Positions 13,370 through 43,247 of a DNA stretch of 64,000 nucleotides are shown here, piece after piece (within the stretch, counting starts at the first letter, position 1; each line of letters begins with the position of its first letter). Source of the stretch: Candidatus Latescibacterota bacterium (GTDB lineage Bacteria; Latescibacterota; UBA2968; UBA8231); contig CBDFJF010000001.1 of NCBI GenBank assembly GCA_965248265.1, positions 1,152,001 through 1,216,000 on the forward strand, read 5' to 3'. Position numbers and translations under genes: made by a program. The notes beneath the pieces were generated by a model. The model made no database searches, was not told where the DNA came from, and saw only the letters and a program-made list of their open reading frames with translations.

Positions 13370-13391
13370 GATGGTGTCCCCATGATATTCG

Positions 13392-15059: not shown

Positions 15060-15184
15060 GTGGTGGTTGTTTTCGTTGAGAGAATCCGCCCGTGTGCCGC
15101 GCTCAGCAACACACGACCCTGTTACAGTCAACAAGCCTGACGACTTTGTCCACCGACTTTGCCACTGAACCACACCCCGAACCC

Positions 15185-15214
15185 TTGCCATTGAAGCACA
15201 TCAGGCCGTAGCAT
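15185..15214 (+). promoter_or_regulatory. Putative sigma70 promoter of prs
   Basis: TTGCCA-N18-TAGCAT upstream of ATG 15241. Confidence 0.4.
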
Positions 15215-15240
15215 TGAAGTAACGGGAACCTCATGGAAAA

Positions 15241-27584: not shown

Positions 27585-27612
27585 TCGACGCGAATCGCTG
27601 CCCGGCCTTCCA

Positions 27613-28317
27613 CTACACAAACTTCTCCCGCTTCTGCAACCGCAACAGACCCAACAGCGTCGTCACCACCGCTCCGATGATCAGGTAAACACGGTTGTAG
27701 AAAACGGCAGCCTCCAGCGCCAGATTCTCGTAGCCGTCTACTTGTTCAAAAGGATTGATGTACAGATCCCAGCGAGTGCCGTCTGTGGTTTCAGTCAGCA
27801 TCCAGCAAATGAGAACCGCGATCAGTAGAACCGCGGCCGCGCCGTTGCCATTGCGGATCGTCGTCGCCAGCATGAAACCGACACTGCTCAGAAACGCGAT
27901 CGGAAACATCAGGTGGATGACCATCGCCGCTATCGAAAAGTCGGATAGTGCCGCCTCGCACAGGATCGCCAAAAGCAGCAGCAGCAGGGCGATCACCAGA
28001 TGCTGTACCAGGTGGCGCGCCAGCCAGACTTTGTAACGGTAGTTCGGAATCCCGAACAGGGTCTCCAACATGCGGCCATCCACCTCGCTTTGCACGCTGT
28101 ACGCCGACGGATAAAAGGCCAGCAGAACACCGGGCACCAGCAGGAAGTAATAGATCGACTGCGCGTTCGGCGGCACCTCCTCCTGCACCGTGTGCACGAT
28201 GACGACGATGCAGAACGTGAGCAGAGCCAGCAGCAGGAAATAGATGAACTTGCCAGCGAACACCTGGTTGGCGCTGTAGCGCGTAAAGGCGGTCATGCTG
28301 CGGAGCGTACCCCACAT
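27613..28317 (-). CDS. ABC-2-type transporter permease
   Basis: About six TM segments; EVDGRMLETLFG resembles the ExxxGTxE motif; last gene of the export operon. Confidence 0.7.
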   Translation of the reverse strand: MWGTLRSMTAFTRYSANQVFAGKFIYFLLLALLTFCIVVIVHTVQEEVPPNAQSIYYFLLVPGVLLAFYPSAYSVQSEVDGRMLETLFGIPNYRYKVWLARHLVQHLVIALLLLLLAILCEAALSDFSIAAMVIHLMFPIAFLSSVGFMLATTIRNGNGAAAVLLIAVLICWMLTETTDGTRWDLYINPFEQVDGYENLALEAAVFYNRVYLIIGAVVTTLLGLLRLQKREKFV

Positions 28318-28319
28318 GA

Positions 28320-31300
28320 TCAGCCGACCTCCTTGTCGAGCAACCACAGGTAAGAGTCTTCCAGCGTCGGCGTCACCGCCTCGGCTTCGCTCATCGGTTG
28401 GGACGCGGCCAGCAAGCGCACCCGAATGGAGTCTCCATCACGCATGTGGTGGACGATGCGGGCATGCTGACGAAGCTCCTCGAAGCGGGGTTCGCTGACA
28501 TGCGCCTGCCACACCGCGCCGCGGGTCAGCTCCACCATCTCCTGGGGCGTGCCGTGAAAGCGGACTTCGCCGTCTCCCAAGACAGCCAGACGGTTACAGG
28601 AACTCGAGATGTCTTCGATGATGTGGGTGGAGAAAATTACCGCGCGGTCGCGCCCCAACTGGGCAAGCAGATTGCGGAAGCGGATGCGTTCCCGGGGATC
28701 CAATCCGGCCGTAGGCTCGTCCACGAGGAGGATCCGCGGTAACTGCAGTAACGTCTGTGCAATCCCGACACGCTGCTTCATGCCGCCGGAAAACCCGCCG
28801 ATCTTGGTGTCGGCACTGTTGTCCAGGTGCACGGAGCTCAACGCTTCACTCAGCACGCGATGACGCTCTTCGGTGTCCCACTTGCCTTTGAGCAGCGCCT
28901 GGTAGTCTAAAAATTGACGCGCCGTCATGCTCTCGTAGGTGCCGAATTCCTGCGGCAGGTAGCCGATCAATGCCTGTAACTCCTCACGTCGTTCGCTGAG
29001 GTCAATATCATTGACCCGTACCTTGCCCAGGCTTTGATCAAGAATGCCGCAGATGATCCGCATCAACGTGGTCTTGCCGGCGCCATTGGGGCCGATCAAT
29101 CCGAACATGCCGCTTTCGATCTCGAGGGAAACACCTCTCAATGCGACAAACGGTTTCTTGCGTTTGCCGATGACGGGTATCGCCCGCACCATCAGATAAA
29201 AGGCTCTGCGACTACGGCGGAAGCGTCCGGTGATGGCGTCAACGTTGACGCGGCCGCTGTGCAGCCGTCGTGCTCCGCGGTTGATCGCAGCGGCGCCGTA
29301 CCAGAGCCCTCCGACCGTGGCCACGGGAGCCGTTTCATCCCACATCGAATAGAACCAGTAGAGGTTTGGCGCCGGTAGCAGCCAGTAACACAAATGATAG
29401 ACGAAACGAATGGAACGTCGGACGAAACCACCAGCTGTCGGCAGCCATGCCCACGCCAAGTTGAGCACGTGGGCGTGGAATGCGACTGAGAATACGGTGA
29501 TCCAGAAGCCGCTCTGCTGATAGAAGTACGTGAGATAGCAGTGGAAGGCGAGCAACGGCAAGCGCCATACCAAGGACGCCCAGCGCCCACCGCTATCGCC
29601 GTACTTTCCTGGATGATGCTGTTCCTGGCGAGTCCCGCGTCCCCATTGTCGCGCGAAACGGGAAGAGGCATCGTACACCTTGACGACGTTACGAATCGAA
29701 ATACTCAGCGCGACTCCCGCAGGAATGGGATCGGCGCGGCTGTGTCGAAGACTCGTCTGCACGAACCAGGTCAGCCCCGGAACCAGGCCCAGGACCGTGG
29801 CACCCGCGGCGACCTGCCAGAGGACGGAATCCGTGTTGTAATGAATCAGCAACGCCCCAGCGACCAGTGCCGCTATCTGGACGATTTTGATCCTCCAACT
29901 CAGCTGCCGCAGCCAGACCGCGGTCGTAGCGAGTCCGAAGTAGACGGTTGGCACCAACACCAGAGTGAAAACGGTACCCGTGACCAGACCACCAATCACG
30001 GCCGTTGCGAACGGAGCCCCTATCTGCGCGACGTACTCGGCGTTGCCCATGGCCAGAGGCAGCATGGCCAGGATCGTCGACAGCGCCGTGATCAGGATCG
30101 GGCGCACCCTGACCTGCCCCGCCGCCAGTAGTGCCCTACCGAGGCGATATCCCTGGCGTTGCAACAATCGAGCGTAGTCAATCAGTATGATACCATTGTT
30201 GACGACGACGCCCAGCAGAATCAGAAAGCCGACCAGTGCGTTGGCGTTGTAGATGGAGTCACCGGTCAGAATCAAACCCCACAAGGCACCGGTGGCGGCC
30301 AGGGGCAAGGTGATCATCATCGACAGAGGCGCCACAAGCGATTCGAACACCGAGGCCAGAATCATGTAGATGAGCAGAATCGTGGCCCCGATCAGGAAAT
30401 AGAAATCAGCCAGGTCGGTTTCGTCGTGTTCCACCTCCAGTGACATGCCCGCAGGCACATAAAAATCCTCGGCCAGTCTGTCCACGGCCGCACGCGTCTC
30501 ATCCAACAGCTCTTTGGAGCCCGTGACGTCATGGTCGAATCGATAGTTTATCTCGACCTCTTTCTGTTGATTCACGCGGTTGACCTGCCCATAGCCGAAT
30601 TCGTAATGCAGGTCGGCCACATGCATCAACGGCACGGTTCCTCCCGACTCCGTGTTGATTTGCAGCTGGCGCAGATCGTCCACCTGCCGGGGCGGGTGCC
30701 CGGTACTCGACAGCACCACGTCGATTTCATCCGTGCCACGCTTCAGTCTCGCCCGTGATGAGAGCTGGCTCTGGAAGTCGGACAACCCTGAGGCTATGGC
30801 CTCAGGCGCCACCCCGAAATAGGCCGTCGCCGCCTTGTCGACGGCCAGAGCGATCTCCGGTTGTCCTTTTGAGACTCCGGGATTGGCGTGAACGACCCCG
30901 GGCAGGCGCTCGAGATTGTAGCGAATGTCATCAGCCACCGTGAGCATCATCTCAAGGTCATTGCCCCGAAGGATGAGACGCTCAGCTCCCTGTCCAATTC
31001 CCAGCAGTCGCTGGAAAGCCCGGCTGGCGCCAGCGTTGCCACCTCCCTGGTACCGACCCGTACTGGGTTGGTCCGATGAGAAATTCAGGTGCGGAAAAGT
31101 GTCGCGCAGCCGCTTGCTGACGTCCCACCTGATCGTCGCCAAATTACGTCTCGCGATGTCGTAGAACCCCTCCTTCAACTCAAAGGATAGATGCAGATCG
31201 TCAGCCTCGATGTCGAATTGACGCTCCTCTAACTCCTCTATGTCGGCCACCCGGGCATCGATCTGTTGGGCCTGCCGGTCCGCTAACGCCAGGGTGGTAC

Positions 31301-32999
31301 CAGCAGGCAGCGTTGCGTACAGGTCGAAGGTCTTTAACTCCACCTCCTCGGAACTGTCGATGCTCAATGCCAGACTCAAAACCATGCTGAAAAACAGCGC
31401 CGTGACGGCGACGACGACGGTCCGCGCCGGGAAGCGCATGCAGGACTTGAGCAACAACGAATAGATCTGCATCAGACGGTTTCGCTGGGATACCGTATTG
31501 AAGGTTTGGTCACCGGCACCACGTCTGGCAAACAGGCGGTGGGTGAAAACGGGGATCAGCAGCAGGGCGACCACCAGAGACACCAGCAGCGTCGAAATAA
31601 TCGAAACCCCGACCTGCCGCCCCAGTATGCGCACGAGAAAGTTCTCCGAGAACACGAAAGGGAGAAACACGCACACGGTCGTCAACGTCGCCGCTGCCAC
31701 GGCCCGCCAAACCTGAGATACTCCCTTTACCACCGCCTCGTGTACCGGGCCACCGCGAGCCACCTGCCGGTAGATGCTCTCCAGCACCACGATGCTGTTG
31801 TCCAGCAGCATGCCGACGGCGATAGCGATACCGACCATAGACAGCGTGTTCAGGGTTACATCGAGCGCGTAAAGCAAATTCATTGCGATCAACACCGAAA
31901 TCGGCACCGCCGCCGCCACGATGGCCACCAGAGACAGATTGCGCAGAAACACCCACAACACGCCGACAGCCAGCAACGCCCCAACCACGGCCAGCGACTT
32001 GATGTCGCCGATATTGTCTTCGATCACTTCGGCCGAATCTTGCTGGATCACCAGCTCAACGCCGTCGGCCTCCAGCGACTGGTTCAACCTTGCAATCGTC
32101 TCGCGCGCTGATTTGGCCAGCGCCAGCAGGTTGGCTTCCCGGTCGCTGACCAGAGAAATGGATACCGCTTCCATGCCGTTGACCCGGGAGATACTCTCGC
32201 CAATGGCAGTACCGTCGAAGATGGTCGCGATCTGCCCCAGGCGCAGTCCGTCCTCGGGCCGGATGATGGTTTCTTCGAGCTCCTCAAGGGAATCGAAGTC
32301 GCTGACCAGGTTGACGAAGAACCGTTGCCGGCCGTCGTAGGCCTCGCCCAAGTATTTTCGCTGCGCAGATGCCTGTTGGATTCGGTCGTTCACCGAGGAC
32401 AGCGTCAGTCCGTAGCTGTGCATGACGTCCTCGTTCAGCACAACCTCGACCAGTTGCTTGCGCCCGCCGTAGATGACGACATTGGCCATACCGTCCAGCC
32501 GCTCCAACTCAGGGACGACCCTTTCATCCAGCACGTGGCGAATTTGATCCAATGTCCCGACGCCGCGCGCATCCAGCGACATGAAGCGGGTCGCCATCTG
32601 CTCGGTATCGATCTTGAACACCATCACGAAGAACTCATCGCTCAGATCGGCTCGCGCCGCCGCCACGCGTTCCTGCAACTTGAGAAAGGCATACTTCTGA
32701 TTGCTGTCGCGCGTGTAGTAGACGAACAGCATGGCTGACTGCTGTTCTATGTAAGACTCGATCCGTTCAATTCCTTCCAAACCCGCTATGGCGCTTTCCA
32801 GGGGGATTACCGCTTGACGTTCCAGGTATTGCGGATCTGATTCCTGCTGGGTCTGTTGTACCCGCACAGTCAGCATGGGTAGTTCAGCGAAGGGAATGAG
32901 CTCGACGGGCAGTCGCTGGTAGGAAATAACCCCGAGTATGCTTGCCCCGATCAGGAGCATGCACACCATCACGGGTCTTCGCAGGAAGAAGGCGATCAA
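28320..32999 (-). CDS. RND efflux permease (AcrB/AcrD/AcrF family) fused to a C-terminal ABC ATPase
   Basis: RND motifs [30 protein letters not shown]; NBD motifs [24 protein letters not shown], STH in one 1559-aa ORF. Confidence 0.9.
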   Translation of the reverse strand: [1559 protein letters not shown]

Positions 33000-33012
33000 G
33001 GAGATCTCTCGG

Positions 33013-36000
33013 TCACGCGGGGGTCACCCGCAGGCGGTCGACGCGGGCCAGCAGATGGTAGACACAGGGAATCACCACCAGGGATAGAGCGGTGGAGGTC
33101 ACCAGGCCACCGATCACGGCGATGGCCATCGGAGCACGCAGGGCCGCACCCTCTCCGGCGCCGATTGCCAGAGGCAGCAGGGCGAGCATCGTCGTCACAC
33201 TCGTCATCACGATTGGCCGGATTCGCGTCTGTCCGGCGTTGATGATCGCCTCCCTGAGTTCCTGACCGCCACGTCGGTTCTGGTTGATACGATCGACGAG
33301 TATGATCGAGTCATTGACGGAGATTCCCGTCAGCATGATGATACCGATGAAGGACATCACATTGAGCGGCATCGACAACGCCATCAACAGAACCACGGCG
33401 CCGACCCCGGCCAGGGGGATCGTCAGTAGAATCACGAAGGGATGGACCAGCGATTCGAACTGAGCCGCCATCACCATGTAGACCATGACCACGGCCAGCA
33501 ACAACGCGAAGCGCAGACTCTCGAAGGCTTCCTGCCGCAGCTGTTCCTCCCCCGTGACAGAAAAATTGTACTCCGGAGGCCACGGTATCGCCACCAGCTC
33601 GGCCCGGACCCGTGCCACCACCCGGTCAAATGGAAGCCCGGAATCCTCCACCTCGGCACTCACCGTGGTTGTGCGTACTTGGTCGTTTCGGGTAATCGCC
33701 CTCGGTGACACGGTCGGAACCAGGCTGGCCACCTCATCCAATCGCACCTTTCGACCTTCCGGACCTTCCAGCATCACGTTCTCGAGATCCTGAACCGCCA
33801 ATCGCGGCCGCCGAATCATGATATCCGTGTACTCGCCCTGTTGTTGGAGTTGCCCCGCTTCACGGCCGGAGAGCAGGTGTTCGAGCTGGGTGCCGATGTC
33901 GTCGATCTCCATCGAGTGCTGCGCCGCCCGTATGCGGTCGATCTCGACGTCGATCTGCGGGCGACCCTGTCCCGCCGTGGTCTCGACGTTGGTGAGCTCG
34001 CTCATCGACGCCAGGCGCTCCTGCACCTGCGCGGCCAGTCGTGTCAGCACCGGGAGCTCTTTGCCCTTGATCTCGATCACCAAGGGCGCCGATGTGCGCC
34101 CGAGGCTGATTTCGAGAGCCGTCTCCTGTTGTGCGAACTGGGCCTCTATATCCGGCAACCCTGCCAGTTCCGTGCCCAGGGCCGAAATCAGATCGGCGGC
34201 TGAGAGTTTACCCTCGGGTGAGAACAGGATGTGGATGACCGCAGTGCTTTCGTCGGCCAGGACTTCCAGTGCGTCTCCCGCGCTCGCGGTACCCGTAGGG
34301 CCGACCCGCGAGTACACATGGGAGAGGTGATCGGCGAAGTTGTGCAGCAGAAAGGCTTCCAGGTTGCGCACCACGCCTTCGGTGCGCTCAAGGTGTGTGC
34401 CCTCCGGCAGTGATAACTCGACGGTAACTTCGCCACGTCCCGCTCGTGGCATGAACTCGCTGCCCAACCTTGAAAGCGATGCCGCCGTGACACCGATCAT
34501 GACGAGGGTGGCGAGAACGACCAGTCCCTTGCGGGCGATGAGCGATCCGAGCAGTCCGGCGTAGCGTGGAAAACGGATTGCACTACTGACTGGTGGTGCC
34601 CCTGCCGTTTTCAACAATCGTGTACATAGCATTGGCAAAACCGCGAGCGCCACGAACAGCGAGGAAACGAGCGAAAAGGCTACCGTCCATGCCTGCTCAC
34701 GGAACAACTCACCGGCAGCGCCGTGCAGGTAGACGATCGGCAGAAAAACGATGATCGTTGTCAGCGTCGAACTGGTAATTGCACCGCCGACTTCGGCGGT
34801 GCCCTCAATCGCCGCTTCCGTCAGCGACGAACCCCCTTCCAGCTTTCTGAAGATGCTCTCGACCACAACGATGGCGTTATCGACCAGCATGCCGGCCCCC
34901 AGTGCGAGCCCGCCCAGCGTCATCAGGTTAAGAGACAGATCGCCGAAGTACATCAAATTGAAGGTGGCGACGATGGAAATCGGAATGCCGATGCTGACGA
35001 CGGCCGTCAGCCCGATCCGACGCAGGAACACGAAGAGAACGAGGACCGCCAGAGCGATGCCGATCAGTCCGGTCTGCTCCACCTCGGTAACGGCTGCCTC
35101 GATGAAGCGTGCCTGGTCCTGCACAATTTCGATCTCGTACCCCGGGAGCGTGTGCCGCAGAATCTCGAGGTGTTCGTGAATACTCTCGGCAGCGTCAATC
35201 GTGTTGTGCCGCGCCTCCTTGTAGATCTCCAGGCCGATGCAGCGCCGGCCGTCCAGGCGCACCATGTTTTCCGGTTCGCTCAGCGTCACCCGAACCTGGG
35301 CTACTTCACGCAGGGAGACGGGCACCATCTGCTCTGCGGATGCCTGATCAGATGACGACTGATCGGATGACGGCGACTGATCTTGGCCCGGCCGCAGTGG
35401 CGTCTCCGGCGTCTTCTGCATCACTATCAGGTCGTTCAACTCATCCGCCGACGTCAGCTCTCCAACACCCTTGATCACGTAGCGGCGCCCCATCTCGACG
35501 ATGGAGCCACCGGTCATGTTGCGGTTGGCGCCCTCGATCGTCGACTTCAATTGCTCCACGGTGAGGCCGTAGGCCTCCAGGCTGTAGGCGTCGGCCAGGA
35601 CCTCCACCTCGCGCCGTCGCTCACCGACGAGCTCGACAGCGGCGACACCCGGCAGGCGGATCAACTCGGTGCGGACGATGCCCTCGGCCGTCTGCCGGAG
35701 CGCATCCAGGTCCGTTACTTCTGGATGATAGAGGGCCGCCACTACCACCGGTACGGCATTGGGGTCATGCTGGCTGACGGTCACCTCGTCGAGATCTTCC
35801 TGACGCTGTGACTGATCCGCCATCGTCTTCTGCAGATCCAGAAAGGCCTCATCCATGTCGACACGGCCCCAACCGTACTCGACCGTGATCAATGCCCGTC
35901 CGGTCTGGACTACTGTACTAACACCGGCCACGCCTCGGCCGCGGACCGCCGCTGACTCCAGTTGAGTGACGAACTGCCGCTCCATCTCTTCCGGTGGACG

Positions 36001-36162
36001 GTCGCCTGCCTTGACTTCGACAAACAGGCGCGGGTTCTGCAGATCGGGAAACAGGTCCATGCCGAGACGCTCGAAGGAGAGGTATCCCAGCAGCAGAATC
36101 GCCAGGATCAGCATCAGCACCGTGGTCGGGTAGCGGACCGAAAATCGCGGCAGCGAACGCAT
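33013..36162 (-). CDS. RND efflux permease (AcrB/AcrD/AcrF family)
   Basis: 1049 aa; [30 protein letters not shown]. Confidence 0.93.
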   Translation of the reverse strand: [1049 protein letters not shown]

Positions 36163-36164
36163 GA

Positions 36165-37244
36165 TCAGCGCGCGCCTCCGGCCGCTACGTTGGTGATCTT
36201 CACCTTCGAGCGGTTGCGCAGGGTCTCGAAGCCCTCGACCACCAGTTGCTCCTCGACCTCCAGGCCACTGAGCACCTCGATCTCGAAGCGGTTGCTCAGT
36301 CCGGTCTCCAGGCTGCGCTCTATAGCAATCCCCTTGTCCACGACGAATGCGTACTTGGTCTCTCCCCGGTCGATGATGACCTCCTTGGGGATGACGAGGG
36401 CTGAATCCTTCGACGCCACCACCACATCGACCCGCATGAACATGCCCGGACGAATGGCGAGCGAGTCGTTGGCAATGCTCAAGGTCGCCTTGAACATGCG
36501 GCTCTCCGTATCCAGAACCGGTGATACCTGCGTCACCTGCCCGCGCAAGGTGTCTACTTCAGCGTTGCCGTAGTGGGTGGCCAGTACCTCCTGACCTGGC
36601 ACGATCCTGTCGATCTCCTTCCCAGGCAGGGAGACCTCGGCGTAGAGGATGGCGTAGTCCATGATCTGTCCCACGACAGCCCCGGTCTCCAACAACTGGT
36701 TCGGGCTGTAGTGCTCAACATCGACCAGGACGCCGTCGAATGGTGCCCGGACCTCCAGCTTGACCAGCTGCAGCTGAGCGTTCTCCAGGGCGTAGCGCGC
36801 ATCGATAAAGGCCCGCTCCGCCTCGGTGAGCTCGCGCAGGGTTATGCCGCCCTTGTCGAACAGGGCCTGTTGCTTCTCGTATTCACGCTGGGCCGAGGTG
36901 AAGGCAAGCTTCTTCGAGTCCATGCCGGCCTGATTCACCAGTTCCGGGTTGTCGAGCCGGACGATGAGCTCATTCTCGAATACATCGTCCCCCATCTCAA
37001 AGGGCTTTTCGGTGCGCGGATTGTCCTGTAGCCTGTACCAACCGGCCTGCAGACAGTGCAGGTTGCCTTCGCGCTGCGCCCGAGCCGTTCCCGTGGCCGT
37101 TACATACTCGGCAATCGGCCATTGCGCCACCTTCTCGACGCGCACCGGGATGGCGGATTCGACGTCTATCTGAGGTCCTTCGTCGTCGCAGCTCCAAAAA
37201 GCGGCGAGTGCGAGAACGGCAACTGATCTGGGCAAACACTTCAT
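36165..37244 (-). CDS. RND periplasmic adaptor (MFP) lipoprotein
   Basis: Lipobox FWSC, VRAPFDG, IRPGMF, IEVLSGL. Confidence 0.92.
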   Translation of the reverse strand: MKCLPRSVAVLALAAFWSCDDEGPQIDVESAIPVRVEKVAQWPIAEYVTATGTARAQREGNLHCLQAGWYRLQDNPRTEKPFEMGDDVFENELIVRLDNPELVNQAGMDSKKLAFTSAQREYEKQQALFDKGGITLRELTEAERAFIDARYALENAQLQLVKLEVRAPFDGVLVDVEHYSPNQLLETGAVVGQIMDYAILYAEVSLPGKEIDRIVPGQEVLATHYGNAEVDTLRGQVTQVSPVLDTESRMFKATLSIANDSLAIRPGMFMRVDVVVASKDSALVIPKEVIIDRGETKYAFVVDKGIAIERSLETGLSNRFEIEVLSGLEVEEQLVVEGFETLRNRSKVKITNVAAGGAR

Positions 37245-38773
37245 CGTGCACTCTCCTGATATTGCAGGTCCTTAACGGGCTCGTAGCTGACGAAGTCGTA
37301 GAGTGTGTGGATTTTCAGATCCAGCAGGGCGAGGCGGTAGTTGATCAATACCCCCACCTCGTTGATCTGCTCACGCGACAACTGGGTTTGGTAGTCGGCG
37401 ATGTCCTTCGACGACAGATCACCGTTGCGATACCGTTCCAGATTGATCTCGTAGGTCAGGCGGGCGTTGACGACGTTCTTCTCTGCAATTTCGATCTGCG
37501 TTTTCTGGGTCGACAGATTTCGATGAGCCTGGCGAATGTCGGCGGTGATGCGCTTGCGCTCCTCTGAGGCCGAAAGCTCGGTGCGGTAGACCGACTCCTG
37601 GGCTGAGGCCATGCGGTGCTGCTTCTCTCCCCAGTCGAAAAGCGGAATGTTGAAGGTCAGTGTCAGTCGCTGATTTCGCGATGGGTCATCATAGGTTCGG
37701 CCCAGCTCTTTGTCGGTGCCAGTGAGACCGAAGGTGAGATCGACAGAACCCTCGAACTCGTTCTGGGCGTCCGTCGTCACCAACGCCTGCATGGCGTCCT
37801 GGATGGCGATATCCTGCTGCCGCAGTTCCATGCGGTTCGTCAGCCCGTAATGGATCGCCTGCCGCAGATCCACCGCGACGAGCTCTTTTCGAATGACGGC
37901 ATCGACCGACAGGTCCTCATCCAGGGACATGCCCAGCAACATCTTGAACTCGTCGAGGGCATTGGCATACTCGAGTTGCACATTCTGCAGGTTGCCGGCC
38001 GCGTTTGCCCGTGTCAGATCCGCCTGCAACAGGTGCTCGCGCGCCGTGATCCCGGCCTTGACCTTGCTGTCGATGATCTCGTAACGCTCGCTGGCGTTTC
38101 TCAATTCCTCTTTGACGATCTCGACATTTCGCTGCTTCAGATAGAGGTCCAAAAACCTGCGGGTGACCTGGCTCTCGATCTGCAACCGCTGAATGGCGTG
38201 ACTTAACTGGGCGCTCTCAAGGGCGAGCTCGAGTCGTTCGAGATTGAGCTTGGTGCGATTGTAGGTGAACAACGGCTGGGAATAACTCAGCAGCAGCTGA
38301 TTGCTGTAGGTCTGCCGAGTCCCTCCGCCCGCGAACGCACTGGAAGCTTCACGCCAATCGAGAGATTGGATTATGCTCAGTGTTCCGTCCGTCAACTCGA
38401 CCGGTTGCTGAATGGCGAAGCGAACCCCAAGGTGCGTCTGCTCCTGGGTGTTGTACTGTGACGTCAGGTCACTGAACACGCGGTCCTTGGTGAACTCGTA
38501 GGGTGTCACACTCAGACCGAACCGCGACTTGAGGGCCGCCCGTTGCGCCTGCAGGTTGCGGCGATTGATCTCCAGGTTGTGACGCACGTCCTGCATCGCC
38601 GGGCTGCGGTCGAAGGCTATGGTCAGGGCCCGTTCGAGTACCAGTTCCTCGCTCACGGCCTGAGACGCTGCGAGCACGGCCGAAGCCCCAAGAGCCAACC
38701 ACGTGCCCTGCAGTTGATCTCGCAGTCGATCTCTTCGTCGAGCCTGTTTCTCAATCATAGTTTCTCCACCCAT
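37241..38773 (-). CDS. TolC family outer membrane protein
   Basis: YSQPLF and FNIPLFDWG strands, RYRNG, coiled helices; start may be ATG 38758. Confidence 0.9.
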   Translation of the reverse strand: MGGETMIEKQARRRDRLRDQLQGTWLALGASAVLAASQAVSEELVLERALTIAFDRSPAMQDVRHNLEINRRNLQAQRAALKSRFGLSVTPYEFTKDRVFSDLTSQYNTQEQTHLGVRFAIQQPVELTDGTLSIIQSLDWREASSAFAGGGTRQTYSNQLLLSYSQPLFTYNRTKLNLERLELALESAQLSHAIQRLQIESQVTRRFLDLYLKQRNVEIVKEELRNASERYEIIDSKVKAGITAREHLLQADLTRANAAGNLQNVQLEYANALDEFKMLLGMSLDEDLSVDAVIRKELVAVDLRQAIHYGLTNRMELRQQDIAIQDAMQALVTTDAQNEFEGSVDLTFGLTGTDKELGRTYDDPSRNQRLTLTFNIPLFDWGEKQHRMASAQESVYRTELSASEERKRITADIRQAHRNLSTQKTQIEIAEKNVVNARLTYEINLERYRNGDLSSKDIADYQTQLSREQINEVGVLINYRLALLDLKIHTLYDFVSYEPVKDLQYQESAR

Positions 38774-41700
38774 TTCACTGCATCAGCGATTACGGTGCGG
38801 CCATCTGCCTTGTCCGTTAGCTCGACATATGCAGACCCGGCCGGCAGACGATAAGTACCGATATGATTCCAGCCCTCCTCCAACTGAGCCAGGTCCAACT
38901 TTACGGGCTCGACGCCATCGTCGTGATACACCTGCAGATTCATCTCACTGCCCTGGCGATAACGGCCGCGGTGGTGGCGCCCCCCCCGCGATTCATTCAG
39001 AAGCCCGCAGTAGAAGTAGATCTCATACTCCCCGCTTCGATCGATCTCCGTTCGCCAGGAAACGGTGCTACGCCCATCACTGGCCCTCTTGTAACGGCCA
39101 GACAGCACGAACTGCCCGTAGAAGCGGTGATCCGTCGTCGCCTCCCAGGTTCCGGGCGGATCCCAGCGCATGCCCATGTACGGGGTCTCCCGTTCGCGCA
39201 GATCGAACCAGTCTACCAACAGACGTCGCAGGAAGTTCGCCTGCTCCGCCTCATGGACCTCGAAGCCCTCATCCTCGTTGTCTACGATATACTCGCTCGC
39301 CTCCGTCGGCGGGTCATCCGCCAGCATGGAAGTCTCCTCGCCCCTGAATGGCCGGGATCGGCGGCGAAGCTTCTGCTCCGAAAATGGGATGCTGATGATA
39401 GAGGGGATGTTCTGGGAGAGGTAGGTCTCCACCATCATCTCGGCCACCGGCCGGTCTGTCAGAATACCGATTCTTTTGCGCACTCCTGCCGGCATCGCGA
39501 TGACGGTCTCGTTTTCAACCTGTGCCTGTGTTCCGCGCATCCAGGGGCGCTCGTTGTTGCTTTCGCGCTGACGGAAACTCACCTCCACCAGTCCGTTCAC
39601 GGCGGTCGGGTTGCTGATCTCCACTTCGACTTGAGTCCGCGTGCGTTCACCATCGCGGACCAGGTAAGACTCCGCCTTGTCTACCTGGTACCCAGGCAAA
39701 TCCGGTGACCTGTACCAGCGCTCGACGATCGGCTCCGGATCTTCACCACTCAATTCCGAAATGAGACGAATCAGCTCTGCTTCGGACAGCCCCCGGTAGC
39801 GGCTGTCGTCGACCGCAGTGGTGAGCCGCTCAGCGAATTCTTCGGCCCCCGAGCTGGCCGCCAGCAGCTGCAACAGATGCCGGCCCTTGGCCTGGATAGC
39901 CGCCTTGCGCGTGTCGCGCGGCAGCTCTGTATCCCTGAGCAGGTCGGCCAGGCCTAGTTCCTTCACCGCCAGACTGGCGCGCTCGGTTGCCGTCAGACCT
40001 TGCCACCGCCTGGACATCATGTTCTCTGGCGGTTCGACCCGGTCGCGGAAATACGCCTCGAAGGCGTAGTTGAGAACTGGCCAGCGCTTCGAAGGCAGAT
40101 GTGTGACGTACGACAGGAAACAGGGCAGCAGCTTGTAGCGAGTCTCGACACCGGACTCGCTATCGAGGCTGCGCCAGACTGGAATCTCCAGCCCCAACAA
40201 GTCGAGCATGGCGAAGGTGCGCACATAACCGACTTGCAGATCCTCGGCCGTCTCAGCCTGGTTGGCCGATTCCTGTCTCCGCTTGGACTGCCGCTTCTGC
40301 CGGCGGAAATCGCAGCCCTCGCACAGGGCTCCCATTTCCGGCAGGAAGACGATTTCCGGCTGCACCGACTCCTGCGCCACCGTCCACAGACGCTCATAGG
40401 CGAAGAACTGAATCGGCGTCTCCACCAACGTGAACCGGGGATGGGGGTAGTTCATGCCCAGCGTCACCTCGTATTCGTTCCTGAGTTCGGTGATGAGCTC
40501 GGGCAATGCTCCAGCCACGGAGTCCAGGTAGGTGTCGAAGTAGTCATGCCCCGGCCTGATAGCCAGTCGATAGGTGACATCCTCGACGACGAGTTGCCGG
40601 ACCTCGTATTGACCCATCGTCAGCGACACCTGGGGCAGTGGGTCATCGGTGCGAAAGCGATGCACCCCGGTGAGCGAATCGACCTCGACGGTCCCCTGAG
40701 AAAACACCGACCATCCCTCGGGTGGCGTCACCGAAATCTCGTAGTCCGCGTAGTCACGGTGTCCGGGCTCGGGAAAGGCGGTCCCGGGGGGCACCCCGGC
40801 GCGTGGATACCAACCGGTCTCCGGCGTTAGGTGCACGAAATCAGGCCCCACCATGGAATACTGTTTCGGTACCGAATGCAGCCACAACCGGTACTGCGCC
40901 TCCATGCGTTCGTCCTCGACATCCAGATAGCAGAAGCGTTCATCGATACTACCCTGGTATTCCAGCCGCAGTTGCATGGTGTCCGCGGGTGCGAGGGCTT
41001 CGAGTGGGACCACGCGCAACAGGTGTTCATCCCGACGAAAGGTGAGCGCTGTTTCCTGAGCGGTGATCTCTTCGACTCTCAATCCCGGGTTCAGCGTCAG
41101 CAACAGCGTATCCAGTTCGGACGTGCCTTCATTCGTGATAGTCAGGTCGGCCGTAATCGCCAGTTGGTTCCCGCGTTCGTCGGCCACATCCAGCCGGCAC
41201 GCCGTCATGGTTGGAGCACTCAAGCGTGCCGCTTCACTACTCAACATGCGTAGGTGCTCCCTGTAGTCTCGCTCCGACCACCGGGCTTCCATGTAGGTGT
41301 ACCCGGACCAGCCAGCACCGCCCATGCAGCAGATCGCCACAACACCAGCACCCAGGGACGCCAGTCGCGATTGTGGCAGTCGGCTGCTCAGCAATGGCGT
41401 GATTGCGATGCATCCCAGGCCGAAAAGCAGATGCGTTCCCCGCACCAGCAATAGCTGTGTTTCATTGCCTGCCCCGATGAAATCGGACCAGTTCAGCGGT
41501 ACATGGAAAGCGAACACGTCGAAGAAGAAGTGGTAGCGGTACCCGACCATCGTCAGCGACACGATACCGATGGCGACGACCAGGACGAACACCAGGGCCT
41601 GGTTGCGCAGCAGCGTCACCAGCATTACGGCTAATCCAGTGGTGAATATCAGGGTGGGAATGACGGCCACCACGATCGCCATCACGTAAGGCTGCCATAT

Positions 41701-42123
41701 GAGTGGTACCGGCGCGAAGAAATGATGCAGCACAGCAGACACCACCAGGACGATCAGTTCGAGGACACCGAACACCGTTGCGACACCCAGTACCTTGCCG
41801 AACACGTAGTCGACGTTGGTAAAGGAGTGGACGAACACCGTTTGTACCGTGTCGTCGCGACGATCCCGTTTGACGAATTCGGTGGCCAGAAAGGCGGCGA
41901 TGGCACCCATGTAGACGTTGAGCAGTTTTATATTGCCCAGGGGCAGCCCCCCGGGCAGTGACACCACGAAGTGTGGCACATGAGACTGTGGCAAACTCAT
42001 GCCCATGTTGAACATGAACAGGAAAAACAGGGCGACTCCCAGAGACAGGCGGAATGCCCATGAGCGGCCCAGGAGTTTTGCCTCGCACAGGGCGATGTTG
42101 GCGATGGCACGCAGGTTGATCAC
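38755..42123 (-). CDS. ABC-2 permease fused to a degenerate M1-aminopeptidase-like periplasmic region and a golvesin/xanthan-lyase-like C-terminal domain
   Basis: Six N-terminal TMs (YVFGKVLG); LNPGL, LTPETGWYP, FTLVETP; C-terminal IVDNEDEGF...GWNHIGTY...VIADAVKW; no HEXXH. Confidence 0.72.
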   Translation of the reverse strand: MINLRAIANIALCEAKLLGRSWAFRLSLGVALFFLFMFNMGMSLPQSHVPHFVVSLPGGLPLGNIKLLNVYMGAIAAFLATEFVKRDRRDDTVQTVFVHSFTNVDYVFGKVLGVATVFGVLELIVLVVSAVLHHFFAPVPLIWQPYVMAIVVAVIPTLIFTTGLAVMLVTLLRNQALVFVLVVAIGIVSLTMVGYRYHFFFDVFAFHVPLNWSDFIGAGNETQLLLVRGTHLLFGLGCIAITPLLSSRLPQSRLASLGAGVVAICCMGGAGWSGYTYMEARWSERDYREHLRMLSSEAARLSAPTMTACRLDVADERGNQLAITADLTITNEGTSELDTLLLTLNPGLRVEEITAQETALTFRRDEHLLRVVPLEALAPADTMQLRLEYQGSIDERFCYLDVEDERMEAQYRLWLHSVPKQYSMVGPDFVHLTPETGWYPRAGVPPGTAFPEPGHRDYADYEISVTPPEGWSVFSQGTVEVDSLTGVHRFRTDDPLPQVSLTMGQYEVRQLVVEDVTYRLAIRPGHDYFDTYLDSVAGALPELITELRNEYEVTLGMNYPHPRFTLVETPIQFFAYERLWTVAQESVQPEIVFLPEMGALCEGCDFRRQKRQSKRRQESANQAETAEDLQVGYVRTFAMLDLLGLEIPVWRSLDSESGVETRYKLLPCFLSYVTHLPSKRWPVLNYAFEAYFRDRVEPPENMMSRRWQGLTATERASLAVKELGLADLLRDTELPRDTRKAAIQAKGRHLLQLLAASSGAEEFAERLTTAVDDSRYRGLSEAELIRLISELSGEDPEPIVERWYRSPDLPGYQVDKAESYLVRDGERTRTQVEVEISNPTAVNGLVEVSFRQRESNNERPWMRGTQAQVENETVIAMPAGVRKRIGILTDRPVAEMMVETYLSQNIPSIISIPFSEQKLRRRSRPFRGEETSMLADDPPTEASEYIVDNEDEGFEVHEAEQANFLRRLLVDWFDLRERETPYMGMRWDPPGTWEATTDHRFYGQFVLSGRYKRASDGRSTVSWRTEIDRSGEYEIYFYCGLLNESRGGRHHRGRYRQGSEMNLQVYHDDGVEPVKLDLAQLEEGWNHIGTYRLPAGSAYVELTDKADGRTVIADAVKWVEKL

Positions 42124-43118
42124 TGGTCCGGGCCATTCCCGGAAGAGTCGTCCGACACGATGTCGCCCGACACGATGTCGCCCGACACGACGTCGTCCGT
42201 TGCTTCCAGACTCATGTCCTGTCCGATCGACTGCATGTAATGGATGTAGGCGTCCTCGAGATTTGGATCGAGCGGCTCGGCCGATGGCGTTGGTTTTGCG
42301 TCAGCGACCATGCGGATTTCATACCCTTCAGCAGCCGGCACCATCGACACCACCGGATACCGCTCCCTCAGATGATCCGCTTCCTGAAACTCGGCCTCGA
42401 CCTTCCAGACCTTACCACGTGCCTTGGCCACCAGATCGGTCGGTGGGCCATTGTAGACGATCACTCCGTCGTTGAGCAGCGCTAGGTCAGTACAGGTCGA
42501 CGAGATGTCGCCGACGATGTGAGTGGACAGGATGATGATGATTTCGCCGCGCGCCAGATCAGCCAGTAGATTGCGGAAGCGCAACCGCTCCTGGGGGTCC
42601 AGGCCGGTAGTCGGTTCGTCGACGACCATGACGGCGGGATCGCCGATCAGGGTCTGGGCGATCCCCAGGCGCCGCTTCATACCGCCCGACAGTTTGCTGG
42701 CCTGGCGGTCACGCACCTCGAACAGACCGACCTGCTCGAGCAGGCCGTCGACACGTTCGCGCCGCTCTTTCTTGCGGTACAGACCAGCGAGCGATGCCGC
42801 ATAGTCGAGAAACTCCCAGGTCGCCAGCTTGGGAAAGCGGCTGAAATCCTGGGATAGATAGCCGATCAAGCGGCGGATCTTCGCCCGGTCTCGCTGCAGA
42901 TCGAGGTCGTCGAAACGGACCTCACCCGCCGTCGGCGTCAGCAGGGTCACCAGGATCTTGATCAGCGTCGTCTTGCCGGCGCCGTTGGGGCCCAACAGGC
43001 CGAACATGCCGTTGCCGATCGTCAGATCGACGTCGCGCAAAGCATGGTGGCCTCCTTTGTACTGCTTGCTCAGCTGCCGGATGTCGATACGCAAGAAACG
43101 ATCTCCTTCGGGGCTCAT
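42120..43118 (-). CDS. ABC transporter ATP-binding protein
   Basis: GPNGAGKTT, LSGGMKRR, VVDEPT, STH. Confidence 0.95.
   Translation of the reverse strand: MSPEGDRFLRIDIRQLSKQYKGGHHALRDVDLTIGNGMFGLLGPNGAGKTTLIKILVTLLTPTAGEVRFDDLDLQRDRAKIRRLIGYLSQDFSRFPKLATWEFLDYAASLAGLYRKKERRERVDGLLEQVGLFEVRDRQASKLSGGMKRRLGIAQTLIGDPAVMVVDEPTTGLDPQERLRFRNLLADLARGEIIIILSTHIVGDISSTCTDLALLNDGVIVYNGPPTDLVAKARGKVWKVEAEFQEADHLRERYPVVSMVPAAEGYEIRMVADAKPTPSAEPLDPNLEDAYIHYMQSIGQDMSLEATDDVVSGDIVSGDIVSDDSSGNGPDQ
42152..42196. repeat. 15-bp tandem repeat x3 (in frame, D[VI]VSG)
   Basis: CCGACACGATGTCGC x2 plus CCGACACGACGTCGT. Confidence 0.85.
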
Positions 43119-43247
43119 TCACATTGAATAATTAGGTGAACCCTGTCCAGGTGTGCGAATCGACTACTCTCCGTACTCGTCCGCTTCGTATCTTTGACTA
43201 TCCTGTGGGCAGTTCAGACTGGTCAGGCGCTATCGACGCGGTATCCC

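What the first reader, a model, noticed from the sequence alone, without database searches (positions are those of the whole stretch)
27613..43118. Seven-gene hybrid RND-ABC export operon with an RND::ABC-ATPase fusion
Seen: seven tightly packed co-directional genes in the order ABC ATPase, 1122-aa ABC-2 permease with large periplasmic domains, TolC, MFP, RND, RND fused to an ABC NBD, and a small ABC-2 permease. The fused NBD has intact Walker A, signature, Walker B and H-loop. Established: RND pumps are proton-driven and ABC exporters ATP-driven, and the two normally form separate tripartite systems. Inference: two NBDs, two ABC-2 permeases and two RND subunits suggest one assembly in which a heteromeric ABC transporter is physically tied to a heteromeric RND/MFP/TolC channel, possibly relaying a large substrate such as a peptide, lipoprotein or glycoconjugate. 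I know of no characterised example.
Basis: partly seen in the sequence, partly recalled or inferred. Interest (0 to 1): 0.82.

Follow-up and report, generated by a model that had tools for sequence, protein, structure and literature searches.

The report
Conserved RND pump fused to ABC ATPase
A tightly packed operon, conserved across several bacterial phyla, encodes a proton-driven RND efflux pump whose second subunit is permanently fused, through six extra membrane helices, to an ATP-driven ABC motor; it looks like an undescribed hybrid export machine.

Summary
Seven co-directional minus-strand genes (27613-43118) encode NBD1, a 1122-aa ABC-2 permease, OMF, MFP, RND-A, a 1559-aa RND-B::NBD2 fusion and a small ABC-2 permease.

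**Fusion.** It is not an artefact.
- The frame is open in 82 of 168 genomes of the window's phylum and in 4 of 401 sampled genomes of Prolixibacter's phylum.
- All 120 listed database clusters carry both domains.
- The junction is conserved in sequence.

**Operon.** The gene order recurs wherever the contig allows in 36 of 36 loci. These come from records labelled Gemmatimonadaceae, Calditrichaceae, Latescibacterota and many Bacteroidota, including cultured Prolixibacter, Marivirga, Draconibacterium and Parabacteroides.

**New details.**
- RND-B is followed by six extra hydrophobic helices. Four of them are inserted inside NBD2, between strand beta-1 and the Walker A region.
- NBD1 and NBD2 are sister paralogues, and the two permeases are remote paralogues.
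- The large permease carries a probably periplasmic M1-aminopeptidase-like domain without its zinc motifs, plus a Golvesin_C domain.
- A six-gene form lacks the OMF.

**Open points.** Physical tethering is shown. A single ATP-plus-proton relay machine is inferred, and the substrate is unknown. Four literature searches found no description.

The parts
42120..43118 (-). NBD1: free-standing ABC ATPase (332 aa) with a C-terminal domain. It is the sister paralogue of NBD2.
   Evidence: PF00005 scores 108.8 bits. It is 43% identical to the fused NBD. All ATPase motifs are conserved in 10 of 10 orthologs. NBD1 and NBD2 form sister clades against 6 other NBDs of the same genome, with support 99/97.
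38755..42123 (-). PERM_L (1122 aa). It has a 6-TM ABC-2-type membrane domain plus a 7th TM (residues about 1-275). A probably periplasmic M1-aminopeptidase-like region without zinc motifs follows. The C-terminus is a Golvesin_C / xanthan-lyase-C-terminal-like domain (residues 991-1118, window 38770-39153).
   Evidence: Pfam gives ABC2_membrane_2 at 22.8 bits (below cut-off) and Golvesin_C at 49.6 bits. A profile of 9 orthologs searched against PDB sequences hits xanthan lyase C-terminus (5.4e-11), tricorn factor F3 (1.5e-6) and aminopeptidase N (3.1e-6). HExxH and GxMEN occur in 0 of 9 orthologs. Family hydropathy shows 7 TM segments with a positive-inside pattern.
37241..38773 (-). Outer-membrane factor (TolC-like, 510 aa). 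The true start is probably downstream of the listed ATG.
   Evidence: PF02321 OEP scores 143.4 bits in two stretches. Orthologs align from residue about 42 onward. The gene is absent from the six-gene form of the operon.
36165..37244 (-). Membrane-fusion (periplasmic adaptor) protein, 359 aa. A Cys at residue 19 ends a hydrophobic N-terminus, so it is a probable lipoprotein.
   Evidence: TIGR01730 RND_mfp scores 162.5 against a cut-off of 94.9. The N-terminal sequence was printed. The lipoprotein reading is by eye.
33013..36162 (-). RND-A: ordinary-length RND permease (1049 aa).
   Evidence: PF00873 scores 699.9 bits over residues 6-1038. It is 28% identical to RND-B. It lies directly upstream of RND-B in all 33 of the 36 loci that reach that far.
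29910..32999 (-). RND-B: the RND permease part (residues 1-1030) of the 1559-aa fusion protein.
   Evidence: PF00873 scores 523.9 bits. It aligns to MdtB up to residue 1032.
29175..29909 (-). Tether module (residues 1031-1275).
- Hydrophobic hairpin 1042-1060 / 1063-1081.
- NBD strand beta-1 with the A-loop Tyr (about 1098-1110, window 29670-29708).
- An insert of about 165 aa with four hydrophobic segments: 1143-61, 1164-82, 1199-1217 and 1223-41.
   Evidence: Family-average hydropathy over 112 full-length proteins. Conserved sequence across those 112 proteins and invariant K and Y in 47 of 47 aligned sequences. There is no Pfam family, only a sub-threshold ABHD16_N hit at 20.9 bits. In 1.84 billion representatives it matches just 74 clusters: full-length fusions with the module at about 1032-1299, or fragments.
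28320..29174 (-). NBD2 core (residues 1276-1559, plus the stop codon).
   Evidence: PF00005 scores 100.2 bits at residues 1287-1431. All catalytic motifs are invariant in 47 of 47 sequences.
27613..28347 (-). PERM_S: small 6-TM ABC-2-type permease. The likely start is the ATG at 28317, giving 234 aa.
   Evidence: Weak PF12698 hit at 18 bits, below cut-off. Six TM segments by family hydropathy. hhalign against the PERM_L membrane domain gives probability 88.8%, E 2.5e-6, over 215 columns. It lies directly downstream of the fusion in all 34 of the 36 loci that reach that far.

Best explanation
The locus encodes one self-contained envelope export machine, conserved as a 6-7-gene module.

**Shown.**
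- The second RND subunit (RND-B) is covalently joined to an ABC ATPase (NBD2) through a family-specific module of six hydrophobic helices. Two follow RND TM12. Four are inserted in the NBD between strand beta-1 (A-loop) and the Walker A region. The ATPase is therefore held at the membrane beside the RND trimer.
- The operon carries two paralogous ABC-2 half-transporters, NBD1+PERM_L and NBD2+PERM_S. Both have intact ATPase motifs.
- It also carries two divergent RND paralogues, one MFP and, in one form, an OMF.

**Inferred.**
- The two half-transporters form a pseudo-symmetric ABC-2 heterodimer, in the manner of ABCG5/G8 or YbhS/YbhR.
- This heterodimer is tethered to a heteromeric RND-A/RND-B trimer. 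Having two RND paralogues solves the mismatch between a threefold RND and a twofold NBD pair.
- ATP hydrolysis moves a cargo from the cytoplasm or inner leaflet to the periplasmic face. There the periplasmic pseudo-aminopeptidase / carbohydrate-binding-like domain of PERM_L and the RND porter domains receive it.
- The proton-driven RND/MFP/OMF part then expels it across the outer membrane.
- The cargo is unknown. The periplasmic domains hint at a peptide- or glycan-bearing molecule.
For: **The fusion is real and selected.**
- The full-length frame is open, with no stops inside any listed match, in 82 of 168 genomes of the phylum and in 34 of 52 high-quality ones.
- All 120 best database clusters carry PF00873 plus PF00005.
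- The linker and insert are conserved in sequence over 112 proteins.
- The tether module occurs nowhere else among 1.84 billion representatives: 74 hits, all either fusions or fragments.
- Only 5 short proteins match it. Two of them lie on contigs of 2318 and 1935 bases, and none shows an intact stand-alone form.

**The module is conserved.**
- The order PERM_L-OMF-MFP-RND-A-RND-B::NBD2-PERM_S is kept in 36 of 36 loci as far as each contig reaches.
- NBD1 lies about 14 kb upstream on the same strand in 5 of 5 genomes tested.
- Ten complete operons were read.
- In the phylum, the fusion and PERM_L co-occur in 78 genomes. Four genomes show only the fusion and four only PERM_L. All eight are assemblies of at most 90% completeness (lists compared by eye).
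- No gene family downstream of PERM_S recurs in more than 4 of 26 loci, so the module is self-contained.

**Paralogy of the two ABC halves.**
- NBD1 and NBD2 are sister clades with mirrored internal topology.
- PERM_S and the PERM_L membrane domain match by hhalign at E 2.5e-6.

**Both motors look functional.**
- ATPase motifs are invariant.
- The RND TM4 Asp and TM11 Arg are present in both RND proteins.

**Topology.** It obeys the positive-inside rule for 18 TM in the fusion protein (by eye) and 7 TM in PERM_L.
Against:
- Both NBDs have fully consensus sites, so nothing in the sequence forces a heterodimer. Two separate homodimeric ABC transporters fit equally well.
- Mirrored trees are expected for any genes that travel in one operon.
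- The RND parts carry the same TM4/TM10/TM11 residues as the other RND pumps of this genome. They probably run on protons by themselves and need no ATPase.
- The OMF is missing from the six-gene form.
- The distribution is patchy: 4 of 401 sampled genomes of Prolixibacter's phylum. This points to an accessory function.
- The ABC-2 assignment of both permeases rests on sub-threshold Pfam hits plus topology.
- The hydrophobic segments of the tether are only moderately hydrophobic (family-average peaks 1.1-1.7). Some could be interfacial rather than membrane-spanning.
Confidence: 0.5

Rival explanations
1. There are two separate ABC-2 homodimers. (RND-B::NBD2)2 with (PERM_S)2 is tethered to an RND trimer containing two RND-B and one RND-A. 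(NBD1)2(PERM_L)2 is a physically independent transporter, co-expressed because it serves the same pathway.
For: Each NBD gene directly precedes its own permease gene, the usual layout of a homodimeric ABC-2 system. Both NBDs keep complete consensus motifs, unlike many obligate heterodimers. A 2:1 heterotrimer is known for MdtB2C (recalled, not checked here).
Against: The two halves are never seen apart in complete assemblies: 78 genomes have both, and the 8 discordant ones are all fragmented. They are each other's closest paralogues.
Confidence: 0.27
2. The ABC part is a mechanotransducer or regulator, not a cargo translocator. ATP-driven movements of NBD2, passed through the six-helix tether, and of PERM_L's periplasmic domain gate, assemble or power the RND/MFP/OMF conduit. 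They might instead extract cargo from the outer leaflet, as in MacB, LolCDE, FtsEX or LptB2FG.
For: Four helices are inserted inside the NBD fold and two adjoin RND TM12. This gives a rigid mechanical link. PERM_L has an 850-aa periplasmic domain with a dead peptidase fold, which suits binding rather than catalysis.
Against: The permeases have the 6-TM ABC-2 pattern, not the 4-TM MacB/FtsX pattern, and there is no FtsX Pfam hit. The related variant L056 keeps the RND::NBD fusion but lacks the helical insert, so the rigid link is not essential to the fusion.
Confidence: 0.18
3. The fusion is an assembly, frameshift or annotation artefact, or a neutral read-through of two adjacent genes with no functional meaning.
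For: None was found. The only prior is that RND and ABC genes often lie near each other.
Against: The frame is open in 82 genomes of one phylum with no stops. All 120 listed database clusters carry both domains, and their labels span several phyla. The junction sequence is conserved. Contigs of 4 runs bridge the junction without differences. A search for short forms found no convincing split form.
Confidence: 0.02

Closest known systems
MdtABC / MuxABC-OpmB heteromultimeric RND pumps (Proteobacteria)
   Same: Two paralogous RND permease genes lie side by side with a single MFP gene and, as in Mux, an OMF gene. MdtB is the best PDB sequence match of RND-B (E 1.1e-73).
   Different: Those systems have no ATPase, no ABC-2 permeases and no C-terminal extension. 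RND-A and RND-B are only 28% identical. NCBIfam MdtB/MdtC equivalog scores are far below cut-off.
MacAB-TolC and DevBCA-TolC: ABC-driven tripartite exporters
   Same: An ABC ATPase works with an MFP and an OMF across the envelope.
   Different: They contain no RND component. MacB is a 4-TM type with the periplasmic domain between TM1 and TM2. Here the permeases are 6-TM ABC-2-like and the periplasmic domain is C-terminal, after a 7th TM.
YbhGFSR of E. coli and eukaryotic ABCG5/G8: ABC-2 systems with two different permease halves
   Same: They have two non-identical ABC-2 membrane subunits and two NBDs. In Ybh an MFP-like protein is encoded in the same operon (recalled; only the search listing of PMC7190983 was seen).
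   Different: They have no RND partner, no membrane-helix insert in an NBD and no large periplasmic pseudo-peptidase domain.
Sec holotranslocon: SecA ATPase + SecYEG + SecDF (an RND-superfamily member)
   Same: This is a functional analogy only. An ATP-driven step on the cytoplasmic side is combined with a proton-driven RND-superfamily step on the periplasmic side, acting on one cargo (established knowledge, recalled).
   Different: The components are non-covalent and not homologous in the ATPase or the channel. There is no MFP or OMF. SecD/SecF Pfam and NCBIfam hits here are only the generic RND-superfamily signal.
GldAFG gliding-motility ABC-2 transporter (Bacteroidota) and the DrrA subfamily
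   Same: These are the best-scoring named NCBIfam models for both NBDs.
   Different: Scores are below cut-off: GldA 168.9 and 159.7 against 402.6, and DrrA 193.4 and 156.4 against 312.45. No GldG-type auxiliary domain was found in Pfam.

Membership tests
RND permease (Pfam ACR_tran, PF00873) | Full-length match above the gathering score | tested here: met
   RND-A scores 699.9 bits over residues 6-1038. RND-B scores 523.9 bits. The cut-off is 28.
RND permease (AcrB-type proton relay) | TM4 Asp-Asp, TM10 Lys and TM11 Arg (AcrB D407/D408/K940/R971; numbering recalled) | tested here: inconclusive
   In both RND-A and RND-B the first TM4 Asp and the TM11 Arg are present. The second Asp is Asn and the Lys is Asn. 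The same holds for the genome at large: 1 of 11 RND proteins has Asp-Asp and 0 of 11 have the Lys. So this is a lineage habit and not a mark of the fusion.
NCBIfam RND_permease_2 subfamily (NF033617) | Score above the curated cut-off of 1250 | tested here: not met
   586.4 bits (RND-A) and 442.8 bits (RND-B).
ABC ATPase (PF00005) | Match above cut-off, with Walker A, Q-loop, signature, Walker B Asp-Glu, D-loop and H-loop present | tested here: met
   108.8 and 100.2 bits against a cut-off of 25. Motifs are invariant in 47 of 47 NBD2 sequences and 10 of 10 NBD1 sequences.
GldA equivalog (TIGR03522) / DrrA subfamily (TIGR01188) | Score above the curated cut-off | tested here: not met
   GldA: 168.9 and 159.7 against 402.6. 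DrrA: 193.4 and 156.4 against 312.45.
ABC-2 type permease (Pfam ABC2_membrane families) | Pfam match above gathering; six TM helices; gene adjacent to a DrrA/GldA-like NBD | tested here: inconclusive
   Pfam scores are below gathering: PERM_L 22.8 against 27.2, PERM_S 18 against 31.6. Six matching TM segments with a shared loop pattern were found. The two match each other by hhalign at 88.8% probability. Each follows an NBD gene. Some PERM_L homologues carry a precomputed PF12679 hit.
RND-type membrane fusion protein (TIGR01730) | Score above the cut-off of 94.9 | tested here: met
   162.5 bits over residues 34-350.
Outer membrane factor (PF02321 OEP, two repeats) | Two OEP repeats above cut-off | tested here: met
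   143.4 bits in 2 stretches against a cut-off of 22. The TolC subfamily model TIGR01844 scores 71.8 against 225.15, so that narrower family is not met.
Heteromultimeric RND pump (MdtB2C type) | Two RND paralogues assemble into one trimer | not testable with these tools
   Only the gene-level signature is seen: adjacent paralogues and a single MFP.
M1 zinc aminopeptidase (PF01433) | HExxH(18x)E zinc site and GxMEN exopeptidase motif | tested here: not met
   0 of 9 PERM_L orthologs have HExxH or GxMEN. Pfam E-value is 0.32. Only profile similarity to F3, aminopeptidase N and ERAP1 is seen, at E 1.5e-6 and weaker. This is a fold relative, not an enzyme.
MacB/FtsX type ABC transporter | Four TM helices with the periplasmic domain between TM1 and TM2; FtsX Pfam domain | tested here: not met
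   No FtsX hit. The membrane domain has 6+1 TM, and the periplasmic domain is C-terminal.

The most novel reading that the evidence does not exclude
This is a dual-energy trans-envelope exporter. One particle has an ATP-driven ABC-2 heterodimer and a proton-driven heteromeric RND trimer covalently tied through a membrane domain that grew inside the ATPase fold. A cargo is handed directly from the cytoplasmic or inner-leaflet side (ATP step) to the periplasm-to-outside conduit (proton step). That would be the first natural machine to couple the two main energy sources of bacterial efflux in a single polypeptide chain. The second RND paralogue would exist to reconcile threefold and twofold symmetry.
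Probability: 0.4. Interest if true: 0.9.

Novelty: new variant of a known kind. Interest (0 to 1): 0.78.

Why it matters
RND and ABC tripartite pumps are taught as separate solutions that use different energy sources. Cooperation between inner-membrane pumps and RND pumps is known only as a functional, non-physical network.

A conserved, covalent RND-ABC hybrid would show that evolution has hard-wired that cooperation. It would offer a natural system for studying hand-over of cargo between a cytoplasm-facing and a periplasm-facing transporter. It would also raise a concrete structural question: how a twofold NBD pair docks on a threefold RND.

The membrane-helix insert inside an NBD is also unusual in itself. 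I could find it in no other protein context.

The operon occurs in cultured, non-pathogenic bacteria. By their record titles these include Prolixibacter bellariivorans ATCC BAA-1284, Marivirga sericea DSM 4125, Draconibacterium mangrovi, Maribellus maritimus and Parabacteroides massiliensis. The hypotheses are therefore directly testable.

Tried and rejected
**1. Loss of the proton relay in the fused RND.** By eye, RND-B has Asp-Asn in TM4 and Asn in place of the TM10 Lys, which suggested an ATP-powered RND. I rejected this as specific evidence. RND-A and most other RND proteins of the genome show the same pattern: 1 of 11 has Asp-Asp and 0 of 11 have the Lys.

**2. Structure prediction.** No fold search could therefore be run.

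**3. Complex prediction.** I sent the tether+NBD2 module with PERM_S to complex prediction. It was unreachable four times and then declared unavailable. Nothing was folded.

**6. Expression.** No RNA holder was listed among the 22 runs. This is no evidence either way.

**7. Promoter and terminator scan of 27200-43400.** It found 4 promoter-like and 9 terminator-like sites. Shuffles give 4.4 and 10.0, so the result is at chance level and uninformative.

**8. Rfam on the whole window.** 0 matches at gathering score.

**9. Conserved neighbours as a clue to cargo.** None was found. No downstream family is shared by more than 4 of 26 loci. The window's own flanks give no pathway link. They hold a divergent GT4 glycosyltransferase, an AlkZ-like protein, an IMP-cyclohydrolase-like protein and a class II aminoacyl-tRNA synthetase (tRNA-synt_2 domain).

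**10. Split forms of the fusion.**
- Only 5 short proteins match the tether. Two lie on contigs of 2318 and 1935 bases, one is a 221-aa piece, one covers 24% of the query, and one is an 834-aa protein that still holds both domains.
- Among the 74 representatives, one 526-aa protein (P0291) starts about where RND TM12 ends. It could be a genuine split form or a truncated call.

**11. Weak ABHD16_N hit in the insert.** It scores 20.9 bits against a cut-off of 27. I treated it as compositional.

**12. Literature.**
- Five searches were answered. Four concerned the RND-ABC fusion and one the permease/aminopeptidase fusion.
- One search gave 0 papers. The others returned only unrelated papers, of which I saw just the search listings and abstract starts. 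No paper was read.
- Subscription journals, TCDB and supplements were not searchable. "Not described" therefore means not found in these searches.

**13. Taxon of the window.** It was not established. The nearest named relatives are metagenome-assembled genomes labelled Gemmatimonadaceae/Gemmatimonadota and Latescibacterota.

Full report
**1. What is there**

Seven ORFs lie head to tail on the minus strand between 27613 and 43118. Spacing runs from a 28-bp overlap to a 13-bp gap. Pfam and NCBIfam identify them as follows.

| Gene | Window | Length | Identification |
|---|---|---|---|
| NBD1 | 42120-43118 | 332 aa | ABC ATPase, PF00005 108.8 bits |
| PERM_L | 38755-42123 | 1122 aa | Sub-threshold ABC2_membrane_2 hit near the N-terminus; Golvesin_C at the C-terminus |
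| OMF | 37241-38773 | 510 aa | Outer-membrane factor, two OEP repeats |
| MFP | 36165-37244 | 359 aa | RND-type adaptor, TIGR01730 162.5 against 94.9 |
| RND-A | 33013-36162 | 1049 aa | ACR_tran 699.9 bits |
| RND-B::NBD2 | 28320-32999 | 1559 aa | ACR_tran 523.9 bits plus ABC_tran 100.2 bits (residues 1287-1431) in one frame |
| PERM_S | 27613-28347 | 244 aa | Sub-threshold ABC-2 hit |

PERM_S most probably starts at the ATG at 28317. That is two bases after the fusion gene's stop and behind an AAGGAGG, which suggests translational coupling.

**2. Is the fusion real?**

Yes.
- The window lies in a 7.3-Mb genome of two contigs that holds a single copy of the fusion.
- With the 1559-aa protein as query, 82 of 168 genomes of the same phylum have a match at E <= 1e-150, and 34 of 52 high-quality ones do.
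  - The matches that do not reach a contig end cover about residues 2-1556 in one open frame.
  - No listed match has an internal stop.
  - Identity falls to 35-38% in other families.
- A word-indexed search of 5.8 billion clusters listed 120 best hits. All carry PF00873 plus PF00005 and most are 1540-1620 aa. Source labels include Gemmatimonadota, Latescibacteria, Zixibacteria, KSB1, Aminicenantes and Deltaproteobacteria.
- The stretch between RND TM12 and the Walker A motif is conserved in sequence across 112 full-length proteins, and 47 of 47 aligned members share invariant residues there.
- Logan contigs from four runs cover 29069-30200 without any difference. They come from one sample, possibly the source, so they are not independent. 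They break only at the P-loop words that many ABC genes share.

**3. Anatomy of the fusion**

RND-B aligns with MdtB up to residue about 1032. Family-averaged hydropathy then shows six further hydrophobic segments.
- A hairpin at 1042-1060 / 1063-1081.
- Four segments at 1143-1161, 1164-1182, 1199-1217 and 1223-1241.

Between the hairpin and the four segments lies a conserved stretch that reads as NBD strand beta-1 with the A-loop tyrosine. Its Lys and Tyr are invariant in 47 of 47 sequences. NBD1 has the contiguous equivalent.

So an insert of about 165 residues with four hydrophobic helices sits inside the NBD fold, between beta-1 and beta-2. The charged loops fit the positive-inside rule for an 18-TM protein (by eye).

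The tether has no Pfam family. An exhaustive HMMER scan of 1.84 billion representatives found it in only 74 clusters. These are full-length fusions with the module at about 1032-1299, or fragments. A search restricted to short proteins gave 5 hits, none an intact stand-alone form. One 526-aa representative (P0291) might be a split form. I could not check its context.

**4. The operon is a conserved module**

A pattern scan of one genome per species returned 80 loci. In 36 of them (L016-L051) the match includes the RND end, the tether and at least part of the NBD. In all 36 the neighbours are in the window's order as far as the contig reaches.

| Neighbour | Seen in (of 36 loci) |
|---|---|
| RND-A | 33 |
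| MFP | 33 |
| OMF | 32 |
| PERM_L | 31 |
| PERM_S | 34 |

Every miss lies beyond a contig or locus end, with one exception: the Latescibacterota locus L051 has no OMF.

Record titles include cultured strains: Prolixibacter bellariivorans ATCC BAA-1284, Draconibacterium mangrovi, Marivirga sericea DSM 4125, Marivirga tractuosa, Maribellus maritimus, Parabacteroides massiliensis and Bacteroides sp. 224.

NBD1 orthologs (50-58% identical) lie about 14 kb upstream on the same strand in 5 of 5 genomes tested. Ten complete operons fall into two forms.
- A seven-gene form with OMF: the window, L106-L109, L113 and L114.
- A six-gene form without OMF: L110, L111, L112 and L115.

Within the phylum, PERM_L and the fusion are each found in 82 of 168 genomes. 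Comparing the two lists by eye gives 78 genomes with both and 4 with only one, either way round. All eight discordant genomes are assemblies of at most 90% completeness.

No gene family downstream of PERM_S recurs in more than 4 of 26 loci. The window's own flanks are unrelated housekeeping or glycosyltransferase genes. The module therefore travels as a unit.

It is common in the window's phylum but rare in Prolixibacter's phylum, where 4 of 401 evenly sampled genomes have it, counting the centre genome.

**5. The two ABC halves are paralogues**

- NBD2 is 43% identical to NBD1, which is its best paralogue in the genome.
- In a maximum-likelihood tree of 10 NBD1, 10 NBD2 and 6 other NBDs of the genome, NBD1 (support 89/87) and NBD2 (99/98) are sister clades. 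Together they score 99/97. Their internal branching orders mirror each other. This indicates one old duplication followed by joint inheritance.
- PERM_S and the first 245 residues of PERM_L align over all six helices by hhalign: probability 88.8%, E 2.5e-6, 215 columns. They share the same loop-charge pattern.
- Both NBDs keep every catalytic motif: 47 of 47 for NBD2 and 10 of 10 for NBD1.

**6. PERM_L**

After the six ABC-2-type helices comes a positively charged loop and a seventh helix. The remaining 850 residues should therefore be periplasmic.

A profile of nine orthologs matches three kinds of PDB sequence.
- The C-terminal domain of a Paenibacillus xanthan lyase, E 5.4e-11. This is the Golvesin_C region.
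- Several M1 aminopeptidases: tricorn factor F3 at 1.5e-6, aminopeptidase N at 3.1e-6, and ERAP1.
- The N-terminal beta domain of a zinc metalloprotease, 4.8e-6.

A few homologues carry a precomputed PF01433 hit. Yet HExxH and GxMEN are absent from 9 of 9 orthologs. The region is a peptidase-like fold without the catalytic metal site, which plausibly makes it a binding module. Source databases call these proteins hypothetical or a generic ABC permease.

**7. What it most likely does**

*Shown.* The ATPase is covalently tethered to an RND subunit. The two-motor gene set is conserved. The ATPase motifs are intact in both NBDs, and both RND proteins keep the TM4 Asp and TM11 Arg of the proton relay.

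*Inferred.* My best reading (confidence about 0.5) has four parts.
- It is one machine in which the two paralogous half-transporters form a pseudo-symmetric ABC-2 dimer.
- That dimer is docked, through the six-helix tether, to a mixed RND-A/RND-B trimer.
- ATP moves the cargo to the periplasmic face.
- PERM_L's periplasmic domain and the RND porter take it over, and the proton-driven RND/MFP/OMF conduit expels it.

The constant presence of a second, unfused RND paralogue makes sense if it reconciles a threefold trimer with a twofold NBD pair. This is my inference, with MdtB2C as the precedent from memory.

*Rivals.*
- Two independent ABC homodimers, only one of them tethered (0.27).
- A mechanotransducing or gating role for the ABC part (0.18).
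- An artefact (0.02).

The idea that the fused RND had lost its proton relay was tested and dropped. The same TM4/TM10 residues occur in nearly all RND proteins of this genome.

**8. A related variant**

Locus L056 (uncultured bacterium) encodes, in order: a small ABC-2 permease, an RND, a 922-aa PERM_L-like protein with the same 6+1 helix pattern, a 1437-aa RND::NBD fusion, and an OMF.
- Its NBD shares the family's hallmark motifs.
- At the beta-1/beta-2 site it has a soluble insert of about 55 residues in place of the four helices.
- After TM12 it has one weak hydrophobic segment.

The RND-NBD fusion is therefore broader than the helix insert, and the insert grew at a pre-existing loop.

**9. 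Comparison with known systems and novelty**

The parts are familiar: an Mdt/Mux-like heteromeric RND set, an MFP, an OMF and DrrA/GldA-like ABC-2 modules. No family-specific NCBIfam model reaches its cut-off except the MFP one.

I could not find the following described anywhere.
- The covalent RND-NBD union.
- The membrane insert inside an NBD.
- The fixed pairing with a pseudo-peptidase-bearing permease.

Four searches of about 8.4 million full texts returned nothing relevant. The phrase search gave 0 papers, and the others gave only unrelated papers seen as listings.

Databases do show the architecture in automatic product names, for example JGI's "AcrB / ABC-type multidrug transport system ATPase subunit". 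It is visible but uncharacterised. Subscription journals and TCDB could not be searched.

I file it as a new variant of a known kind, the tripartite efflux machinery. If the two motors prove to act on one cargo in one particle, it would be categorically new.

**10. Limits**

- No structure or complex prediction could be run.
- No RNA data were found.
- The cargo, the stoichiometry and the membrane-spanning nature of the tether helices are untested.
- The window's phylum is not named. The nearest labelled relatives are Gemmatimonadota and Latescibacterota metagenome-assembled genomes.

Noticed in passing
L056:1-13322: A second architecture. In order it encodes a small ABC-2 permease, an RND, a 922-aa PERM_L-like protein, a 1437-aa RND::NBD fusion and an OMF. 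The fusion has a short soluble insert of about 55 aa at the beta-1/beta-2 site in place of four helices. This suggests that RND-ABC fusion is older or more widespread than the helix insert.
   Followed up: partly
L107 (= Marivirga tractuosa strain ac6 locus L033): 6612-9783 and 12513-15843: RND-A and PERM_L each appear as two adjacent ORFs in this complete genome, while Marivirga sericea (L032) has an intact RND-A. This may be a frameshift, a pseudogene or a sequencing error. L049 (a Prolixibacteraceae metagenome-assembled genome) shows many such breaks across the operon.
   Followed up: no
L110 vs L111: The operon of a chromosome labelled Candidatus Latescibacterota (L110) is nearly identical in both NBDs to that of G029, a genome of the window's own class (branch lengths 0.04-0.09). 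The window's phylum may therefore be what NCBI labels Latescibacterota, even though its closest DNA-level relative (L016) is labelled Gemmatimonadaceae. Labels of metagenome-assembled genomes conflict.
   Followed up: no
G059, G063, G064, G065, G068, e.g. G063:C27:19430-26095: Genomes of one family of the phylum (f10) hold 4-5 matches to PERM_L, including two full-length matches that lie back to back on one contig (about 30% identity to the query). The pseudo-peptidase permease family therefore also occurs outside the fusion operon.
   Followed up: no
window 43194-44471 (+): A GT4 glycosyltransferase (PF00534, 113 bits) is transcribed divergently, 75 bp from the start of NBD1. It is not conserved next to the operon elsewhere, so it is probably unrelated.
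   Followed up: partly
window 29004-29137: The Logan contigs of all four runs break here, and summed contig depth jumps from roughly 4-17 to roughly 900-3000. This is the Walker A / P-loop coding stretch, whose words are shared by many ABC genes in the sample. It is an assembly-graph effect, not a feature of the gene.
   Followed up: yes
window 22612-24054 (-): A 480-aa ORF with a weak CBM9_1 carbohydrate-binding hit (24.9 bits against a cut-off of 23.4) lies next to a class II aminoacyl-tRNA synthetase gene (tRNA-synt_2 domain). I did not examine it further.
   Followed up: no
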